Positions 24,751 through 39,911 of a DNA stretch of 44,155 nt are shown here, piece by piece (position 1 is the stretch's first letter; each line of letters opens with the position of its first letter). Source of the stretch: Escherichia phage Shashou. The notes beneath the pieces were generated by a model. It had not been told where the DNA came from. It worked only from the letters and a program-made list of their open reading frames with translations, and made no database searches. The translations under genes were made by a program, and so were the position numbers. The stretch is from the sequence record MK931440.1; one strand, written 5' to 3'.

Positions 24751-24888
24751 CTACTCTTCGGATAACTTCTCCAGTACAAACGCCAGTTGCGCATTAGCGG
24801 CGTCTCTCTGTTGCCGTAGTCGTAGAACCTCTTCTTCGAGTTCCTCGATACGTTTTTGCAATGCCGGAATTGGGGCTATGATGTTCAT
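24751..24888 (-). CDS. small coiled-coil protein (45 aa), hypothetical
   Basis: ATGA overlap with helicase stop; heptad-like IEELEEEVLRLRQQ; ends at terminator; not in ORF track. Confidence 0.4.
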   Translation of the reverse strand: MNIIAPIPALQKRIEELEEEVLRLRQQRDAANAQLAFVLEKLSEE

Positions 24889-27350
24889 TTCTTACCTCGT
24901 CTCTTCATGTAATTAAGCAATTCTTCCTGTACAGATTTCTTCTCGTCGGTGCGCGCGGCAACAACCTCATCCAGCGTGTCTTTAGCGACGATGTGATAGA
25001 GGAACACCGGGCGCTCGTGTCCAGCCTGTTTCTGACGAACAGGGCCTATGCGCTCGACAACCTGCAAATAGTGCTCGAGGTTCCATCCCTGACTTATAAA
25101 CGCCAGATGATGCCCTCCATCCTGTAAATTCAAACCATGGCCGGCTGACGCGGGATGAACACATAAGATTTCGATTTCACCACGGTTCCACGCTTCCATC
25201 TGCTTATTACCCTTAGCTCCTTTGGCAAACGCCTTAGCCTGCGGGAATCGCTTAAGTATGCGCTCCAGTTCGTGTTTAAACTGATAGGCCACCAGTAACG
25301 GCGCGCCCTGCAACTCCTCAACAATGGACTCCAGTGCGTCCAGTTTCGTGTCATGCACTTTCTCCCAGTCTTTCGTTGCTTCGCCATCTGGCCCTGATAC
25401 ATACACGGCACCGGACGCAATCTGGAGACACTTTGATGTCTTCGCTGCCGCGTTAGCGGCTTCAACTTCCCCGCTCTCGAGTTCCGCAAATAACTTCTCC
25501 TCCATATCGATGTACGCCTGACGCGCTTTCTTCGGCAGGTCTATTTCAACAGGAACGATAATCGGCGCTTCGCAACCGAACCACTCTGCAGCATCGATAG
25601 TGAGACTGATATCCTTCATCTTCTGATGAATCTCGGTATCCGCGCCCGGGCGAGCGTGATACTCACGCGCCATAGCCGATTTGCCTTTCTGTATCGAATT
25701 AAACCAGCGGTCGGTAAACGCCGTATACGAAGAACCAAGTCGCTCGCCTGCGTCTATAAACCAGTTCTGCCCCCACAAGTCTTTGAGGCCGTTTGGTGAC
25801 GGCGTACCGGTCAGGTTGATAAAACGCTTAACCTTACCAAACGCCACTTTACTAAGCGCCTTTGCTCGCTTGCTGCCACCAGAACGGCTGCGGAACGATT
25901 TAAGCTTCGTGCTCTCGTCGGCAACGATAACTGTGAAAGGCCAGTCGTCTTTGCCGTAGTAGTCAATCAGCCACTCGATAACTTCGTAGTTAGTGCACAC
26001 CACGTTAGCGTCGGACTCAAGCGCCGTGATGCGGCGCTTCTCCGAACCGGTCGCATCTACTACACGCAGGCACGGGAAACCCCAACGTGCCTGTTCCGCG
26101 GGCCACGTGCCAGACGCAACACGCAACGGGGCGAGGATTAACACGCGGTCGTCGTCATTAAGTTGCCCATTACGGAACAGGCGGTTGAGAACCCACAACG
26201 TTGAGCTTGTATTGTGCGTGACAGTGAAGTCCCCCAATAAAAACCTACTGTCACCGTCGATAGTGAAGCCGAAATAATCATCTACGCCGACCGGGGTTAT
26301 GGATTCTATACCAACGTTAAGCACGTTCTTATTAATATTACGCTTCGGTAAATTCTGGTGGCGTCCTCGCACGAAAGGTACCTCAGAAAAATCGCCAGAT
26401 ACCGACACACGGAAGTAGTCACCCCAAACATCAGTGTTTGCGCAACGCTTACGAGTTTTCTTCTTGTAAGCAGCAAAACCAAGAGAACGGCATAGATAGC
26501 AAAAATCATCAGCAAGTCGCTCGCTTACCGAAATCCAGTCAAAACCCGCTTTAGACAAATCGCAGTAACCATCACTATCCAGAAGCCCCGCCAGCAATTC
26601 TAACCGCTGTCGCCGGTCGCCGCATTTGTAACTATGCGGTATATGCTTATTGTTCAGGACACCCGCCGATTTCAGCGCGTGCGTAAACCCGTGCTTCTTA
26701 TGACCTGTGTTGCCGTAAGATATACTCCATGTAAGTCCTTCTTTTCGTATTTGCATCCCATTACGTGCTGCGTACGACTCAAGATAAGCCCTTATTTCCT
26801 TTTCGTTCTCTCCTGATGTTATGGCCCCCGACGACGAAGTACCGTCACCCAGCCATAACCCCATAAGGTACGGAGGCAATAAAGCCTCGTCCTGCTCTTT
26901 CCTTGTAAAATCGACAGGTACCCGCCAACCCTTAAGATACCCATTAGGTCCGGTTACATATTTCGGCAACTTAAGCCAGTCGCGGACGCTTATGTCGAAA
27001 ACGGTATTATCTGGCCATGAACCTTTTGCAATCCCTGTAGTAGTTCGCAGGGATAATATATGGCTTTCGTTGACCGTATACGACTCTCCTTTTCGCGGTT
27101 TAACCTCGTACATCATCTCCCGGCCTCTACCGAGAGACAGTACATTTCTAGGCGTTGAATCCGGCCCCATAAGCACGTCACCGACGATGACGTCTTCTAC
27201 TTTCTTGGTCGTACCGTCAAACATAATAACTTCCGTCCCGCGTTTCAGGCACTTGCCGCTGCCCATACTAGCCCAGATATTGCAACGTGGGTGCTGTAAC
27301 ATAAACGACGTCATTATTTTCTGGTATTCCCTGCGCCTAAATTTACTCAT
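24885..27350 (-). CDS. SF2 (SNF2-like) helicase interrupted by an intein
   Basis: Walker A split as MGSGK | intein | TSSTLW; DExx box VIVADEST; C-terminal helicase motifs incl QVVERIGPVRQ. Confidence 0.8.
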   Translation of the reverse strand: MSKFRRREYQKIMTSFMLQHPRCNIWASMGSGKCLKRGTEVIMFDGTTKKVEDVIVGDVLMGPDSTPRNVLSLGRGREMMYEVKPRKGESYTVNESHILSLRTTTGIAKGSWPDNTVFDISVRDWLKLPKYVTGPNGYLKGWRVPVDFTRKEQDEALLPPYLMGLWLGDGTSSSGAITSGENEKEIRAYLESYAARNGMQIRKEGLTWSISYGNTGHKKHGFTHALKSAGVLNNKHIPHSYKCGDRRQRLELLAGLLDSDGYCDLSKAGFDWISVSERLADDFCYLCRSLGFAAYKKKTRKRCANTDVWGDYFRVSVSGDFSEVPFVRGRHQNLPKRNINKNVLNVGIESITPVGVDDYFGFTIDGDSRFLLGDFTVTHNTSSTLWVLNRLFRNGQLNDDDRVLILAPLRVASGTWPAEQARWGFPCLRVVDATGSEKRRITALESDANVVCTNYEVIEWLIDYYGKDDWPFTVIVADESTKLKSFRSRSGGSKRAKALSKVAFGKVKRFINLTGTPSPNGLKDLWGQNWFIDAGERLGSSYTAFTDRWFNSIQKGKSAMAREYHARPGADTEIHQKMKDISLTIDAAEWFGCEAPIIVPVEIDLPKKARQAYIDMEEKLFAELESGEVEAANAAAKTSKCLQIASGAVYVSGPDGEATKDWEKVHDTKLDALESIVEELQGAPLLVAYQFKHELERILKRFPQAKAFAKGAKGNKQMEAWNRGEIEILCVHPASAGHGLNLQDGGHHLAFISQGWNLEHYLQVVERIGPVRQKQAGHERPVFLYHIVAKDTLDEVVAARTDEKKSVQEELLNYMKRRGKK
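26211..27251 (-). mobile_element. intein with LAGLIDADG homing endonuclease domain (about 347 aa)
   Basis: Begins with Cys after GSGK, ends THN followed by Thr; LAGLIDADG-type motifs LMGLWLGDG and LAGLLDSDG; excision restores GSGKT. Confidence 0.75.
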
Positions 27351-27538
27351 TTCAGCACCAGCACCAGCTCTTTACGCCCGAACGCCGTAACGTTACCTGT
27401 TACATCTTCAATAACCAGTTTACCGTTAGACTCGACGAACACCGTATCAACGGCAACAGGGCGACGGGTCTTAACGTTGAAAATCATATCGCCTGGTACG
27501 ATGTCACGTGCTGGTTTGCGGTCATATTCGTGTTTCAT
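27347..27538 (-). CDS. hypothetical protein
   Basis: 63-aa ORF with ATGA overlap to helicase start; downstream of promoter 27572..27600. Confidence 0.5.
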   Translation of the reverse strand: MKHEYDRKPARDIVPGDMIFNVKTRRPVAVDTVFVESNGKLVIEDVTGNVTAFGRKELVLVLK

Positions 27539-27568
27539 TTCTCAATTCCTTATATTGTTGGTGTAGGG

Positions 27569-27856
27569 CTAACTATAATAGTTCGCTATTAGGTCGTCAA
27601 CCTGTTTAAACGAACCAACGACAAAAACATTTGCACCACGTTTACGCATCCGCTCGTGCTCTCGTAGCTGGTGGGGGTCCGGCTTCGTGTTTTCATCTTT
27701 CTTAACCTCGACGAACCAGATGACGCTGCCGGGGAGGATTACCAGCAGGTCAGGGGCGCCCACTCTATTTTCGTACGACAATTTGCGTACGAGGCCCCCC
27801 AGGGCCTCGAATCGGTCTTTTGCGTATTTCTGAACAACTCCTTCTTTAGTCGCCAT
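27569..27856 (-). CDS. VRR-NUC domain nuclease
   Basis: PD-(D/E)xK signature GAPDLLV ... FVEVKK in a 95-aa protein. Confidence 0.65.
   Translation of the reverse strand: MATKEGVVQKYAKDRFEALGGLVRKLSYENRVGAPDLLVILPGSVIWFVEVKKDENTKPDPHQLREHERMRKRGANVFVVGSFKQVDDLIANYYS
27572..27600 (-). promoter_or_regulatory. promoter TTGACG-N17-TATAGT (minus strand) with palindrome AATAG-ttcg-CTATT
   Basis: Palindrome at 27577..27590 in spacer; upstream of helicase operon. Confidence 0.55.
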
Positions 27857-28346
27857 GGTTACAGAAATCTCCGTGTAGTGATTCTCTCGCCGCGCAGACT
27901 ACTTTGTACGCTTCCTCCTTTGTCGAAAAAGCACCGAAATATATGCGCTTCCCGTTCACGGTTATCCTTGCCCTAAATTTACCTCTTTCAGGTGATACCC
28001 CCTTTAAACATGAGGTGTTGTCACGCCTTACCCTTGCGTTTCTGGTATTCTCCCACCTGGTCGCTAACCGCAGGTTGCAAATCCGATTATCCGCACGGTC
28101 GCCGTTTATATGGTCAACCTCCTCCGGCGGCATATCACCGTACACCCACCACCAAGCCAATCGGTGTGCCGGATAGTGGACGTTTCTGAACACAACTTTC
28201 ATATACCCAAGGTCAGTGTAGTTATTTATAGCTTTCCCCGGAACAGACCGCGGACCACTTCGCTTAACCCATTTGAATACCCCAGTATCAGGGTCGTACG
28301 ACAGGAAATCTTTTATATCGTCACTTGGTGCTTTCATAATACGCAC
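27846..28346 (-). CDS. HNH homing endonuclease (free-standing)
   Basis: HNH core HYPAHRLAWWWVYG ... VDHINGDRADNRICNLRLATRWEN; C-terminal AP2-like DNA-binding region. Confidence 0.7.
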   Translation of the reverse strand: MRIMKAPSDDIKDFLSYDPDTGVFKWVKRSGPRSVPGKAINNYTDLGYMKVVFRNVHYPAHRLAWWWVYGDMPPEEVDHINGDRADNRICNLRLATRWENTRNARVRRDNTSCLKGVSPERGKFRARITVNGKRIYFGAFSTKEEAYKVVCAARESLHGDFCNHGD

Positions 28347-28419: not shown

Positions 28420-28551
28420 TCATTCCAGCACCCACATATAAATTGCGATGAACATGCCTAATACGGCAACCATCATGCCGTATTGGCCCTCGTGGCAGTA
28501 GACACCGGCGGCGAATCCTGCCAGTACCGCGATAATTAGTTTACTTAGCAT
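28420..28551 (-). CDS. small membrane protein (43 aa), hypothetical
   Basis: Overlaps DNA polymerase stop; two hydrophobic segments; not in ORF track. Confidence 0.35.
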   Translation of the reverse strand: MLSKLIIAVLAGFAAGVYCHEGQYGMMVAVLGMFIAIYMWVLE

Positions 28552-30712
28552 AACGCTTCATCTCCGCACCTTCCGCTACAAGAGGGAAGCCTTCTGCCCA
28601 CTCAGGCAGAGAACACATTAATTTTTCCAGTTCGCCCACCGTGTACTCAGATGTATCGGGGGTTTCGCAGATAATCTCATCGTGAACATGAAGTACAATT
28701 GGATAGCCGTTTGCTTCTACGTTCAGCAGGGCGTTAGCCAGCAAATCACGGCACAGCGCCTGAGTGCAGTTTTCCACGAGTTTACCGGAGTAGGTGTACT
28801 GGAAGCCCCACTGACGGGTTAACTGATTCTCTCCCTGGTACTTGATATGCACGTTAGTAGACACCTTCCCGTCTTCGTCTGTCTCTTTCGACACGCTCAA
28901 CCCGATGCCTGGATAGGACATAACGCGGCCAGACGGCAACGTCATGCGCAACCACCAACCGGCGACTTTGTTGCCGTTGTTGTCTGTATCTACGTTACGC
29001 GAAAACTTAACGCCCCGCGGCCCTGCGGTGAACTCTTTGCCTGGATTGCGGATAGCAGCCATAGCTGCGTCTTCAATATCTCGCCAGAATTGTACTATCG
29101 CTGGATTGGCCTCTCGGTACATGCGTTTCAGAGCGTCACATGTTCTCCATACTTTCTTATCAAGTATATATGATGGTCGGTCATCCTTTTCACCAGGACG
29201 TGGTGGTCGCTTGGCTTCCTGAATACGTGCCCACTCGTAACCGCGTGCAGTAGCAGCCCAAATATGGTCCGGGAAAGTTCCGTCTAAAGTGCGTGTCATA
29301 TCATTCAAATCAAGACCTAAGTTTTTAGCAAACGTGACGAAAGCACCGACACCACCCGCGTAGCCGAGGCCCAGAACCATTGCTTTGGCTATTTGTCTTT
29401 GGTCCTTTGTTACGTCGTCATAACTAACGTTGAACACGGTTGATGCGAGTTTCTTATACACATCAACCCCGTTTACAAATACTTCTATTAAATCGTCTTC
29501 ACCAGCAAGCCACGCAAGCCCGCGGCCCTCGACGTTAGAGTAATCAGCGACGACAAACTTGTGCCCTTCTTCTGGTATGATGCAGCTACGAACCGTCGAT
29601 GCCGTTAGCTTGGCTACGTCAAAACGGCGATGAGCACGGCCTTTAAGTAGCGCTGAAATACCTTTATCCAGTTCCTCATCATGGTAATACCCGCGAGCCA
29701 GGTTCTGTGGCTGGAAGCCTTTACCAGCAAATCGTAACGTACGCTTGGCCCCACCATACTGGATGCAACCCCGGCGGCGGTCGTCAGACGAGCGACCTAA
29801 CAGCAATGGGTTGTATTTCGTGGACGCCGTGGACGCGGCCCCGAGGCGCATTTCAATAATCGTACGCGCATCGTCCTGTAAATCATCATCCGCCAGCAGG
29901 TCATTCAGCGTCGACTTCTGTGCGTTGTGGATGCGGTGGGCGGGGGCGAGTTCACGCAGAATCGGCAGGAAGTCTTTACCGGTGAGTGAGCAGCCGTATT
30001 TGCGCTGGGCTTCTTCCTGCAACTGCGCCTTGTGCTTCTCTACGGCTTCAATCGCTGCTTCCGCCAGCGCAACATCAACCTTGAACCCACGGTCATTGAT
30101 TAACTGGTCCAGTTCCAGTACACGGTCTTCGAACTCAGAGTTACCCCACCGCGGCAGCTTATGGAATACTTCACGCATCGCGGTGATGTCGCTCACGGCG
30201 TACTTGATGAACAGCGCCCACTCGTCCGAGTGCGTTTCGGCGGTGTAGCGGCGGATTTTGTAGTTCTTCGGTGTCGGTTTAGAAAAACGCTTAATCAGCG
30301 CCTTGCCGCGTTTGTCTTTCGCGTTGTCTGCAGACACGCCCAGCACTTCACACAGCGCGTCAAGTGAACCCGGCAGCGCGTGACGAAATGCCCAAATCAT
30401 CGTATCAATGGTGTTGCTTACAGGAATATCAAAGCCCCAGCAGTGCTTCATGATGAGCCTATCGAACATTGAGCCGTTGTGCCACACCATCTTAATGCGG
30501 CTGTTTGGCTTAGCCAGACGGCGTAACGCGCGGTGCAAATCTCCCGGCATGTCGCTGCCGTCGGTGCAATCCCATGCCTGTACAGGCTCGTCGTCAAAAG
30601 CATAGGTACAGATGAGCACTTCGGTGGTTGGGTGTTCGGCGTAAGCGTAGGAGCCAACTTTCTTTAAATCGGCCTCGGAGAATGTTTCAAAGTCTAAGAA
30701 CAGGTAACTCAT
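28541..30712 (-). CDS. DNA polymerase, family A, with 3'-5' exonuclease domain
   Basis: Exo motif LFLDFETFS; motif A DYSNVEGR; motif B RQIAKAMVLGLGY; motif C VLHVHDEIICE. Confidence 0.85.
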   Translation of the reverse strand: MSYLFLDFETFSEADLKKVGSYAYAEHPTTEVLICTYAFDDEPVQAWDCTDGSDMPGDLHRALRRLAKPNSRIKMVWHNGSMFDRLIMKHCWGFDIPVSNTIDTMIWAFRHALPGSLDALCEVLGVSADNAKDKRGKALIKRFSKPTPKNYKIRRYTAETHSDEWALFIKYAVSDITAMREVFHKLPRWGNSEFEDRVLELDQLINDRGFKVDVALAEAAIEAVEKHKAQLQEEAQRKYGCSLTGKDFLPILRELAPAHRIHNAQKSTLNDLLADDDLQDDARTIIEMRLGAASTASTKYNPLLLGRSSDDRRRGCIQYGGAKRTLRFAGKGFQPQNLARGYYHDEELDKGISALLKGRAHRRFDVAKLTASTVRSCIIPEEGHKFVVADYSNVEGRGLAWLAGEDDLIEVFVNGVDVYKKLASTVFNVSYDDVTKDQRQIAKAMVLGLGYAGGVGAFVTFAKNLGLDLNDMTRTLDGTFPDHIWAATARGYEWARIQEAKRPPRPGEKDDRPSYILDKKVWRTCDALKRMYREANPAIVQFWRDIEDAAMAAIRNPGKEFTAGPRGVKFSRNVDTDNNGNKVAGWWLRMTLPSGRVMSYPGIGLSVSKETDEDGKVSTNVHIKYQGENQLTRQWGFQYTYSGKLVENCTQALCRDLLANALLNVEANGYPIVLHVHDEIICETPDTSEYTVGELEKLMCSLPEWAEGFPLVAEGAEMKRYAK

Positions 30713-38791: not shown

Positions 38792-38941
38792 ATGGTTACT
38801 TTGATGATTATGGAGTTCGAAAACAGCGCTGCAACTTACCGCGAGATGACTATGGCGCAGGCGTACCACCTGGCTAAACACAGCAACTTCTACAAGGCTC
38901 AAATCATTAATGAGTTTGGGGTAATTGACTATGAATTTTAA
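38792..38941 (+). CDS. small hypothetical protein (49 aa)
   Basis: RBS gagaggagagg downstream of promoter 38732..38760; not in ORF track. Confidence 0.4.
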   Translation: MVTLMIMEFENSAATYREMTMAQAYHLAKHSNFYKAQIINEFGVIDYEF

Positions 38942-39203
38942 CAGCTACACCGTGACCGTTGATTTTGAGGGGCTGGAGTTGCCCCTCCCTAACAACTACC
39001 GGTACATAACGCGCGATAGTAATGGGTTTATTCAGGGGTGGAAGAACAAACCGACGGATACTGAGTTCGGGATGTCAGGAGGAGAAGAGTTGCCGGTCAC
39101 TTTCGGGCATCAGAGTAGCAATGGAGAACTTAAAACGGTGATTCGTAAGTATCGTCGCCGCGATAACACCGGGCTTATCGCAATAACAGGCGCTGTTGAA
39201 TAA
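38931..39203 (+). CDS. hypothetical protein
   Basis: ATG at Met3 of track ORF. Confidence 0.45.
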   Translation: MNFNSYTVTVDFEGLELPLPNNYRYITRDSNGFIQGWKNKPTDTEFGMSGGEELPVTFGHQSSNGELKTVIRKYRRRDNTGLIAITGAVE

Positions 39204-39222
39204 GCGAGAGGAGAGACAGAAG

Positions 39223-39711
39223 ATGAGTAACAAAAACGAAGTATTCGAGTACCTGATTGACCAACTACGGCAGCAGGTAAATAGCAACCCGTACAAGCAA
39301 CAGTGCGAAGACCTGGCGCACGAGGTGTTGTCACTCAAGAATCAGTTACGTGATGCGTCAGAACATATTAAGGAGTTGCATAAGGCGTTGGCTGCAGCTA
39401 CGGGTGACGTAGGCGCTTATATAGCAGCAGAGCAATCTGGTTGCCGTAAGGAAGATACTCAGTACAACGCCTGGAGGCCGCATTATGGTGCACGACAACC
39501 TGTGCCGGATGGGACTATGGTATTTATCCGGTATCGCAACGGGGAGGAGCTGAAACACAGTGTAGCAGCAGAAAAGAGGTTGTGGATTTGGGATGGAACA
39601 TACGCAGACATAGTGGAATACAAGATTGACACACAGGAATGCGAGCACAATTGGTTATATAGTAAACACAAAAGTGGCTTCGTTTGCTTTAATTGTGGGG
39701 CGCGTAAGTAA
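39223..39711 (+). CDS. hypothetical protein with C-terminal Cys/His cluster
   Basis: Start at Met10 of track ORF with RBS gagaggag; C-terminal CEHNW...CFNC. Confidence 0.5.
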   Translation: MSNKNEVFEYLIDQLRQQVNSNPYKQQCEDLAHEVLSLKNQLRDASEHIKELHKALAAATGDVGAYIAAEQSGCRKEDTQYNAWRPHYGARQPVPDGTMVFIRYRNGEELKHSVAAEKRLWIWDGTYADIVEYKIDTQECEHNWLYSKHKSGFVCFNCGARK

Positions 39712-39911
39712 TGACCAGCGTCCTATTTATATGGGTACTGTACGCAGGCCAGTTACAACTAGCGGCAACAGAAACGTTTTACTCACTGGATGCGTGCCAG
39801 GCTGCGGCACGCAACGCAGAGAACGCGCACTTCCTGTTTCAGGATAAGCCGATTGATACTGAGGTGCGCGCGACATGTTCAACGAAACGATTAGCTAAGC
39901 AGGAGAAATAA
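39711..39911 (+). CDS. hypothetical protein with hydrophobic N-terminus
   Basis: Stop-start overlap; N-terminal VLFIWVLYAGQLQLAA. Confidence 0.45.
   Translation: MTSVLFIWVLYAGQLQLAATETFYSLDACQAAARNAENAHFLFQDKPIDTEVRATCSTKRLAKQEK

What the first reader, a model, noticed from the sequence alone, without database searches (positions are those of the whole stretch)
26211..27251. LAGLIDADG intein inserted exactly in the Walker A motif of the SF2 helicase
The helicase ORF reads GSGK-C...(about 347 aa)...THN-T. The insert begins with Cys, ends with His-Asn followed by Thr, and carries two LAGLIDADG-type motifs. Removing it restores a canonical GSGKT P-loop, so the helicase can only be active after protein splicing.
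Basis: partly seen in the sequence, partly recalled or inferred. Interest (0 to 1): 0.55.

Follow-up and report, generated by a model that had tools for sequence, protein, structure and literature searches.

The report
Known helicase intein in coliphage

Summary
Observation and interpretation both hold. The minus-strand ORF 24885..27350 (821 aa) reads ...GSGK|C-(347 aa)-HN|TSST...; the insert is exactly 26211..27251. It matches Pfam Hom_end_hint, LAGLIDADG_3 and, just under its cut-off, Hom_end. Its AlphaFold model (pLDDT 92) superposes on the yeast VMA1 intein PI-SceI (TM 0.8). Cys1, block-B His64, both LAGLIDADG Asp (136, 227), His346-Asn347 and Thr+1 are present.

Seven intein-free orthologues read are all 474 aa, exactly the extein length, and read G(G/S)GK|T or GK|S across the site. 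Deleting the insert raises the SNF2 domain score and makes it span the P-loop.

The intein looks mobile. About 180 phage records carry it and about 270 do not. Its synonymous divergence is 4-15 times lower than that of the flanking helicase.

It is not new. The gene is 100% identical to phage Sciku's annotated "intein-containing DNA helicase". The window's length matches phage Shashou, whose announcement states that the helicase contains an intein. Lys|Thr is described as the "classic" P-loop intein site.

Splicing and DNA cleavage remain untested. Interest is low.

The parts
24885..27350 (-). Precursor ORF: intein-containing SNF2-family helicase, 821 aa plus stop
   Evidence: 100% identical to Sciku CPT_Sciku_034 'intein-containing DNA helicase'. 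phrog_62 DNA helicase, E 4e-199.
27252..27350 (-). N-extein, 33 aa, ending in Walker A residues G-S-G-K
26211..27251 (-). Intein, 347 aa (Cys1 ... His346-Asn347)
   Evidence: Length equals the 821 minus 474 aa difference from intein-free alleles.
27249..27251 (-). Cys1 codon, the N-terminal splice nucleophile (block A)
   Evidence: Invariant in 39 aligned homologues.
27060..27071 (-). Block B, N-E-S-H (intein residues 61-64). I recall the yeast VMA1 intein having Asn at this first position where most inteins have Thr.
   Evidence: His64 invariant and Asn61 at least 90% conserved.
26352..26906 (-). LAGLIDADG homing-endonuclease domain (approximately intein residues 116-300)
   Evidence: Pfam LAGLIDADG_3 above cut-off and Hom_end just below it. 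Model matches PI-SceI, PI-PfuI and I-DmoI. dN/dS 0.04-0.09.
26841..26867 (-). LAGLIDADG motif 1, LMGLWLGDG; Asp136 aligns with PI-SceI Asp218
26568..26597 (-). LAGLIDADG motif 2, LLAGLLDSDG; Asp227 aligns with PI-SceI Asp326
26265..26285 (-). Block F, VDDYFGF
   Evidence: Aligns with PI-SceI EDDYYGIT.
26211..26222 (-). Block G, V-T-H-N, ending in the penultimate His and terminal Asn
   Evidence: His346 and Asn347 invariant.
26208..26210 (-). Thr+1 codon: first C-extein residue, splice nucleophile and the Ser/Thr of Walker A
   Evidence: The +1 residue is Thr in 75 and Ser in 19 of 94 homologues. GenBank's intein feature wrongly includes this codon.
24885..26210 (-). C-extein, 441 aa plus stop: the rest of SNF2 lobe 1 (motif II VADES at 25908..25925) and lobe 2

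Best explanation
This is a canonical class-1 intein with an embedded double-motif LAGLIDADG homing endonuclease, of the PI-SceI / VMA1 / PRP8-like kind. [quoted passage not shown]

Shown here: the gene is one open frame. The insert is absent from orthologues at exactly this point. All splicing-block residues and both endonuclease Asp residues are present and conserved. The predicted fold is that of PI-SceI.

Inferred from established intein chemistry: after translation, Cys1 makes a thioester at the Lys33-Cys34 bond. Thr+1 attacks it, Asn347 cyclises to release the intein, and an O-to-N shift leaves a normal Lys-Thr peptide bond. The products are a 474-aa helicase with an intact GSGKT P-loop and a free 347-aa endonuclease.

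Inferred from the population pattern: during mixed infection the endonuclease cuts intein-free helicase alleles at the P-loop coding sequence, and repair from the intein-bearing genome copies the intein and a short flank. That would explain why the intein is far more similar between phages than the gene it sits in.
For: - Coordinates and junction residues.
- Domain matches: Hom_end_hint 80.5 bits (cut-off 32.1), LAGLIDADG_3 32.8 bits (cut-off 22.5), Hom_end 21.0 bits (cut-off 21.1).
- Best solved relative by sequence is PI-SceI at E 3e-16, with Asp136 aligned to Asp218 and Asp227 to Asp326.
- The AlphaFold model has pLDDT 92.4 and pTM 0.91. Foldseek against the PDB gives PI-SceI at E 2e-22 and TM 0.79-0.80, followed by the TliVMA and PI-PfuI inteins, the Prp8 intein and I-DmoI.
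- Invariant in 39 homologues: C1, H64, D136, G137, D227, G228, H346, N347.
- Seven intein-free alleles read are each 474 aa, with GGGK|TSSTMW, GSGK|SGATLW, GSGK|SVATLW or GGGK|SGSTLW.
- With the insert deleted, the SNF2-rel_dom score rises from 37 to 48 bits and the match runs through the P-loop. DEAD and ResIII matches also span the junction. The motif aligns as mgsgktsst to CHD1L mglgktcqt.
- Mobility: about 180 records carry the intein, while 442 carry the helicase and only 168 match it at full length.
- Intein dS is 0.025, 0.15 and 0.21 against C-extein dS of 0.39, 0.67 and 0.81 for the same three phage pairs.
- Identity to the Salmonella phages steps from 91-99% inside the intein, to 91-92% in the first 90 nt of the C-extein, to 80-84% in the next 90 nt.
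- Purifying selection acts on all parts: intein dN/dS 0.04-0.06, endonuclease domain 0.04-0.09, C-extein 0.03.
Against: No biochemical evidence exists. Neither splicing nor endonuclease cleavage has been shown for this intein or its close relatives in anything I could find. The homing inference rests on nine reference alleles I compared by hand, and the mosaic recombination common in these phages could also give local identity steps. Thr is usually regarded as a weaker +1 nucleophile than Cys or Ser (from my own knowledge), so splicing could be slow or conditional. PI-SceI needs further active-site residues, such as lysines, which I did not map.
Confidence: 0.93

Rival explanations
1. The intein still splices, but its endonuclease is dead. 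The element would then be an immobile passenger inherited only vertically, at a late stage of the homing cycle.
For: No cleavage data exist. A diverged allele at the same site in phage St162 has the second catalytic Asp replaced by Ala (LLDSAGY), so decay of the endonuclease does occur in this lineage.
Against: In the window both LAGLIDADG Asp residues are intact and invariant across 39 homologues. The endonuclease domain is under purifying selection (dN/dS 0.04-0.09). Intein synonymous divergence is 4-15 times lower than that of the surrounding gene. Only 3 Escherichia-phage records carry the intein against 177 Salmonella-phage records. The last two points argue for recent lateral spread.
Confidence: 0.1
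2. The insert is a splicing-defective relic. The precursor would stay unspliced and the helicase would be inactive or dispensable, making the gene effectively a pseudogene.
For: Splicing has not been demonstrated. Thr+1 is usually a less efficient nucleophile (my own knowledge).
Against: All catalytic positions are present and invariant: C1, H64, H346, N347 and Thr+1. The frame is open for all 821 codons. The C-extein of intein-bearing alleles has dN/dS of 0.025-0.033, which is not expected for a dead gene. About 180 independently isolated, viable lytic phages carry this same arrangement.
Confidence: 0.03
3. The segment is not a mobile element but a lineage-specific accessory domain of the helicase. 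Alternatively it is a different kind of insertion, such as a group I intron with a homing-endonuclease gene, or a bacterial intein-like (BIL) domain.
For: None found.
Against: Orthologues lack it precisely at GK|T or GK|S. It is in frame with both flanks, without stops, and carries Hint blocks A, B, F and G plus a +1 nucleophile, so it is a protein-level rather than an RNA-level insertion. As I recall, BIL domains lack a homing endonuclease and do not depend on a conserved +1 nucleophile. The predicted fold is that of PI-SceI.
Confidence: 0.01

Closest known systems
The same intein as annotated in Escherichia phage Sciku (MK931439, CPT_Sciku_034) and reported for phage Shashou (MK931440, QEA09433)
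   Same: The helicase gene is 100% identical in nucleotide sequence to Sciku's, at the same coordinates. The window's length of 44,155 bp equals that published for Shashou. Both genome announcements state that the helicase contains an intein (PMC6753286, PMC6776780).
   Different: GenBank's intein feature (26208..27251, 1044 nt) includes the Thr+1 codon.
Helicase inteins of Salmonella Jerseyvirus phages (SETP3, vB_SenS-Ent1/2/3, LSPA1 and others), annotated 'putative intein containing helicase precursor'
   Same: Same insertion site, same 347-aa length, and 93-96% nucleotide identity. Ent2's record describes it as 'encoding splicing domains and a homing endonuclease of the LAGLIDADG type'. The Sciku paper cites Anany et al. 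2015 for this being a trait of the subfamily.
   Different: The host here is an E. coli phage, where the intein is rare: 3 Escherichia-phage records against 177 Salmonella-phage records. The flanking helicase is much more diverged than the intein.
PI-SceI, the Saccharomyces cerevisiae VMA1 intein (PDB 1VDE, 1LWS, 1EF0)
   Same: Best match by both sequence and fold. It shares the Hint splicing domain with a nested double-LAGLIDADG endonuclease, Cys1, a block B with Asn in place of the usual Thr, the His-Asn end, and both catalytic Asp residues.
   Different: The window's intein is 347 aa against 454 aa, so about 100 residues of PI-SceI have no counterpart; I did not map which. The +1 residue is Thr rather than Cys. 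Identity is about 22%. The host protein is an SF2 helicase rather than the V-ATPase A subunit.
'Classic' P-loop inteins inserted between the Walker A Lys and Thr/Ser (mycobacteriophage TerL1-a, DnaB-b, MCM-a, RFC and others)
   Same: Identical position within the motif and a Thr/Ser +1 nucleophile. Kelley et al. [quoted passage not shown] Novikova et al. 2016 list 15 bacterial SNF2/HepA inteins and many P-loop insertions (PMC4760082). Here, more than 1000 homologues at 38-49% identity were found; the GK|C junction was read in 61 of the best 120, in proteins carrying ResIII, DnaB, PhoH, thymidine kinase, dTMP kinase, AAA, ABC, UvrD and SNF2 domains.
   Different: The host protein family differs. 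Whether those published inteins belong to the same sequence clade as this one was not tested.

Membership tests
Canonical (class 1) intein | In-frame insertion that is precisely absent from orthologous genes | tested here: met
   Seven intein-free alleles are 474 aa, which is 821 minus 347, and are contiguous across GK|T or GK|S.
Canonical (class 1) intein | Cys or Ser as the first residue (block A nucleophile) | tested here: met
   Cys34 of the precursor is Cys1 of the intein, and is invariant in 39 homologues.
Canonical (class 1) intein | Block B His (TxxH, or NxxH as I recall for VMA1) | tested here: met
   N61-E-S-H64; His64 is invariant.
Canonical (class 1) intein | C-terminal His-Asn followed by a Cys, Ser or Thr +1 nucleophile | tested here: met
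   H346-N347|T. The +1 residue is Thr or Ser in 94 of 94 homologues where the junction was found.
Canonical (class 1) intein | Hint (Hedgehog/intein) fold | tested here: met
   PF05203 at 80.5 bits against a cut-off of 32.1. The model (pLDDT 92) matches PI-SceI at TM 0.8 and Prp8 mini-inteins at TMt 0.84-0.91.
Canonical (class 1) intein | Autocatalytic excision with extein ligation | not testable with these tools
   Needs expression followed by western blot or mass spectrometry. No published assay was found.
LAGLIDADG homing endonuclease (monomeric, two-motif) | Two LAGLIDADG motifs, each with a conserved acidic residue | tested here: met
   LMGLWLGD136G and LLAGLLDSD227G align to PI-SceI D218 and D326. 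Both Asp residues are invariant.
LAGLIDADG homing endonuclease (monomeric, two-motif) | LAGLIDADG domain fold | tested here: met
   PF14528 at 32.8 bits against a cut-off of 22.5. Foldseek hits to I-DmoI at E about 2e-5 and to the PI-SceI and PI-PfuI endonuclease domains.
LAGLIDADG homing endonuclease (monomeric, two-motif) | Site-specific cleavage of the intein-free allele, and homing | not testable with these tools
   Only indirect support: patchy distribution, intein dS 4-15 times lower than extein dS, and an identity step about 90 nt into the C-extein.
SNF2-family SF2 helicase/translocase (host protein) | SNF2-related N-terminal ATPase domain with motif I (GxGKT) and motif II (DExx) | tested here: met
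   The spliced sequence scores PF00176 at 48.2 bits (cut-off 24.9) over residues 28-185, spanning GSGKT. VADES aligns to CHD1L VVDEAH.
SNF2-family SF2 helicase/translocase (host protein) | Helicase_C (lobe 2) domain | tested here: inconclusive
   PF00271 scores 20.3 bits, below the 23.5 cut-off. The region does align weakly to CHD1L lobe 2.

The most novel reading that the evidence does not exclude
The intein might be more than a parasite. Because it splits the Walker A loop and uses a Thr+1 nucleophile, splicing could be slow or condition-dependent (redox, temperature, host factors). It would then act as a post-translational timer or switch for helicase activity during infection, as proposed for some DnaB, RadA and RecA inteins. 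Nothing here supports this beyond its position and its retention in many phages, and nothing here excludes it.
Probability: 0.05. Interest if true: 0.5.

Novelty: already known. Interest (0 to 1): 0.12.

Why it matters
It matters little as a discovery. The element is annotated in GenBank for the identical gene in phage Sciku, mentioned in two genome announcements, and recognised as a trait of the Guernseyvirinae. Insertion at Lys|Thr of the P-loop is a textbook intein site.

It has modest practical value in four ways:
- It is a clean positive control showing that the first-stage reader can call intein boundaries to the codon, more exactly than the deposited annotation.
- Annotators should end the intein feature at Asn (26211), not at Thr.
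- The phage family offers a natural series for studying the homing cycle: intein-bearing alleles, intein-free alleles, alleles recoded at the site, and one endonuclease-mutant allele.
- A compact 347-aa Thr+1 intein from a mesophilic coliphage could interest protein engineers.

Tried and rejected
- I asked whether the 1,025 bases by which the window exceeds Sciku were a terminal or circular duplication. They are not. The difference is an internal block of about 1 kb at 38849-39868, unrelated to the intein.
- I tried to fetch MK931440 (Shashou) to confirm the window's identity. It is not in the local collection, so that identity rests on the exact length match and on 99.8-100% identity to the sibling phage Sciku.
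- I looked for a second intein of this kind in the window by tblastn. None was found. The window's DNA polymerase (723 aa) lacks the intein present in the polymerase of some relatives.
- MAFFT misplaced the short N-extein of the intein-free alleles. I therefore split the genes at the Walker A motif and compared the parts directly.
- NCBIfam gave no informative family hit: only sub-threshold matches to SNF2 equivalogs and to an intein-containing Tes model.
- I suspected that the two-piece BLAST hits with about 494 bp or 676 bp of extra sequence were mini-inteins at the same site. For the 494-bp class this was rejected: in fFiEco03 and SaTp-04 the extra DNA is a free-standing HNH gene upstream of an intein-free helicase. 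The 676-bp class was not opened; BLAST lists a DNA methylase gene under those matches.
- I searched the literature for a splicing or cleavage assay of this intein and found none.
Full report
**1. What is in the sequence**

The finding lies inside a single minus-strand ORF, 24885..27350, of 821 codons. Translation gives MSKF...WASMGSGK | CLKRGTEV...GDFTVTHN | TSSTLWVLNRLF....

The intein blocks can be read directly:
- Block A: Cys1 (27249..27251).
- Block B: N-E-S-H (27060..27071).
- LAGLIDADG motifs: LMGLWLGDG (26841..26867) and LLAGLLDSDG (26568..26597).
- Block F: VDDYFGF (26265..26285).
- Block G: V-T-H-N (26211..26222), followed by Thr+1 (26208..26210).

**2. It is more than a chance resemblance**

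Pfam gives Hom_end_hint at 80.5 bits (cut-off 32.1) and LAGLIDADG_3 at 32.8 bits (cut-off 22.5). Hom_end scores 21.0 bits, just under its cut-off of 21.1.

By sequence, the closest solved structure is the yeast VMA1 intein PI-SceI (E 3e-16). Asp136 and Asp227 of the window's intein align with the PI-SceI LAGLIDADG aspartates D218 and D326.

An AlphaFold2 model built on 38 homologues is confident, with mean pLDDT 92.4 and pTM 0.91. Foldseek against the PDB returns PI-SceI first (E 2e-22, TM 0.79-0.80). Next come the TliVMA and PI-PfuI inteins, Prp8 mini-inteins for the Hint part, and I-DmoI for the endonuclease part.

In the 39-sequence alignment C1, H64, D136, G137, D227, G228, H346 and N347 are invariant.

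**3. The decisive test: intein-free orthologues**

They do not.

Seven orthologous helicases were read in full: Kagunavirus VIPECOTH07, XY1, L AB-2017 and fFiEco03, and Jerseyvirus UPWr_S4, SB3 and SaTp-04. Each is 474 aa, which is 821 minus 347, and each is contiguous across the site. They read ...GMGGGK|TSSTMWVL...SMGSGK|SGATLWVL...SMGSGK|SVATLWVL or ...SMGGGK|SGSTLWVL.

Deleting the insert in silico raises the SNF2-related domain score from 37 to 48 bits. The match then runs from residue 28 through the P-loop, and DEAD and ResIII matches also span the junction. The spliced protein aligns to SNF2-family remodellers, with mgsgktsst opposite CHD1L mglgktcqt and VADES opposite VVDEAH.

So the host is an SNF2-family SF2 helicase, and the insert sits between the Walker A Lys and Thr.

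**4. Is the element alive?**

Nei-Gojobori estimates against three phages carrying the same intein give intein dN/dS of 0.00-0.06. The endonuclease domain gives 0.04-0.09 in the two informative pairs; the third pair has no nonsynonymous change. The C-extein gives 0.025-0.033. Both the intein and its host gene are therefore under purifying selection. This argues against a dead helicase and against a decayed endonuclease.

For the same phage pairs, synonymous divergence compares as follows:

| Compared phage | Intein dS | C-extein dS |
|---|---|---|
| VIPECOTPH05A | 0.025 | 0.39 |
| LSPA1 | 0.15 | 0.67 |
| Ent2 | 0.21 | 0.81 |

N-extein synonymous sites are saturated. Against the Salmonella phages, nucleotide identity is 91-99% throughout the intein and 91-92% in the first 90 nt of the C-extein. 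It falls to 80-84% in the next 90 nt. That step is what a short co-conversion tract would leave.

In the phage collection the helicase matches 442 records but only 168 at full length. The intein itself matches 186 records: 177 Salmonella phages and only 3 Escherichia phages.

Three intein-free Jerseyvirus alleles differ from the intein-bearing junction at five or six of the nine bases just downstream (TCGGGGGCA, TCGGTGGCA or TCGGGGTCA against ACAAGCTCA). Two of them keep the 15 upstream bases identical. They are candidates for homing-resistant alleles, but this is inference only.

A diverged allele of the intein in phage St162 (70% nucleotide identity, same site) has the second catalytic Asp changed to Ala. 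So different stages of the homing cycle seem to coexist in the family.

**5. Mechanism**

Shown: the anatomy, the conservation, the fold, the absence from orthologues, and the discordant divergence.

Inferred from established intein chemistry: an N-S acyl shift at Lys33-Cys34, trans-esterification to Thr+1, Asn347 cyclisation, and an O-N shift. These steps would give a GSGK-T peptide bond, a 474-aa helicase and a free endonuclease.

Inferred from the LAGLIDADG family: the free intein cuts intein-free alleles at the P-loop coding sequence, and recombinational repair copies the intein in.

That the precursor is ATPase-dead is a reasonable inference from a 347-aa domain splitting the phosphate-binding loop. 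It has not been tested.

**6. Comparison with what is known**

The gene is 100% identical to CPT_Sciku_034 of Escherichia phage Sciku (MK931439). That gene is annotated 'intein-containing DNA helicase', with separate mature-peptide features for helicase and intein.

Outside an extra block of about 1 kb at 38849-39868, the part of the window compared with Sciku (27000 to the end) is 99.8-99.9% identical. The window's length of 44,155 bp is the published length of the sibling phage Shashou (MK931440).

Both genome announcements mention the intein:
- Shashou: 'The helicase ... in Shashou contains an intein' (PMC6776780).

Salmonella phages SETP3, vB_SenS-Ent2, 5sent1, fmb-p1 and others carry the same annotation. 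The intein of a SETP3 protein, presumably this helicase, has been placed in a clade near PRP8 inteins (PMC3749507).

The position itself is described as the 'classic' P-loop intein insertion between the invariant Lys and the nucleophilic Thr (PMC5050341). SNF2/HepA helicases are listed among bacterial intein hosts (PMC4760082).

In the large protein database this intein has more than 1000 homologues at 38-49% identity. Among the best 120, 61 sit directly after the GK of Walker A, in proteins carrying ResIII, DnaB, PhoH, thymidine kinase, dTMP kinase, AAA, ABC, UvrD or SNF2 domains. Another 23 sit at GKPG|TGKS/T. The +1 residue is Thr in 75 and Ser in 19.

**7. One correction to the public annotation**

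The intein features in the Sciku and Ent2 records are 1044 nt and include the Thr+1 codon.

**8. Verdict**

Novelty is nil, because the element is already known and annotated. Splicing and cleavage remain experimentally untested. Interest is low (0.12).

Noticed in passing
window 38849-39868: This block of about 1.0 kb is absent from the otherwise 99.8-99.9% identical phage Sciku (compared from 27000 to the end). It holds three small plus-strand ORFs: 38925-39203 (92 aa), 39196-39711 (171 aa) and 39711-39911 (66 aa). It is an accessory-gene indel between sibling phages, and the ORFs' functions were not examined.
   Followed up: partly
window 27846-28346 (-): A free-standing HNH homing-endonuclease gene (phrog_99, E 1e-63) lies between the VRR-NUC nuclease gene and the small ORFs next to the polymerase, 0.5 kb upstream of the helicase. 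No such gene is annotated at this position in VIPECOTH07, XY1 or LSPA1, so it looks like a second, independent mobile element in the replication module.
   Followed up: partly
L013 1601-2098 (phage fFiEco03) and L014 1601-2098 (phage SaTp-04): In these relatives a 165-aa I-HmuI-like HNH gene sits immediately upstream of an intein-free helicase. Its first eight residues (MSKFTRRP / MNKLTRRP) resemble the helicase N-terminus (MSKFRRRE here; MSKFTRRP in LSPA1 and Ent2). This suggests it inserted into the 5' end of the helicase gene, about 100 nt from the intein site, and may compete with the intein for the same locus.
   Followed up: partly
window 28541-30712 (-), compared with L010 4733-7040 and L004 1-2507: The window's DNA polymerase I (723 aa) has no intein. 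The polymerase of Salmonella phage Ent2 is annotated with a 299-aa intein. UPWr_S4 has a first CDS of the same 3099-nt length as Ent2's intein-containing polymerase, together with an intein-free helicase; its polymerase was not inspected. The two inteins therefore appear to assort independently in the subfamily.
   Followed up: no
L009 815-3157 (Salmonella phage St162): A diverged allele of the intein (70% nucleotide identity, same site) has the second LAGLIDADG catalytic Asp replaced by Ala. The helicase C-terminus is out of register and truncated (780 aa). This is either a decaying copy or a sequencing error.
   Followed up: no
window 26208-26210; Sciku record 26208..27251; Ent2 record 26688..27731: The public 'intein' mature-peptide features are one codon too long and include Thr+1, which belongs to the C-extein.
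   Followed up: yes
proteins P0012, P0015, P0021 and others: Twenty-three of 94 intein homologues are inserted at GKPG|TGKS/T, three residues earlier in the P-loop than the GK|T register used here, in an ATPase family I did not identify. One intein clade therefore appears to use two registers of the same motif.
   Followed up: no
L011 3001-3123 (Klebsiella phage YX3973): The 3' end of the intein gives a weak nucleotide match (71% over 123 nt) inside an unusually long ORF (942 aa) annotated as terminase large subunit. A related intein probably sits in that ORF. In line with this, the window's helicase precursor also matches three PHROG terminase families over its intein region.
   Followed up: no
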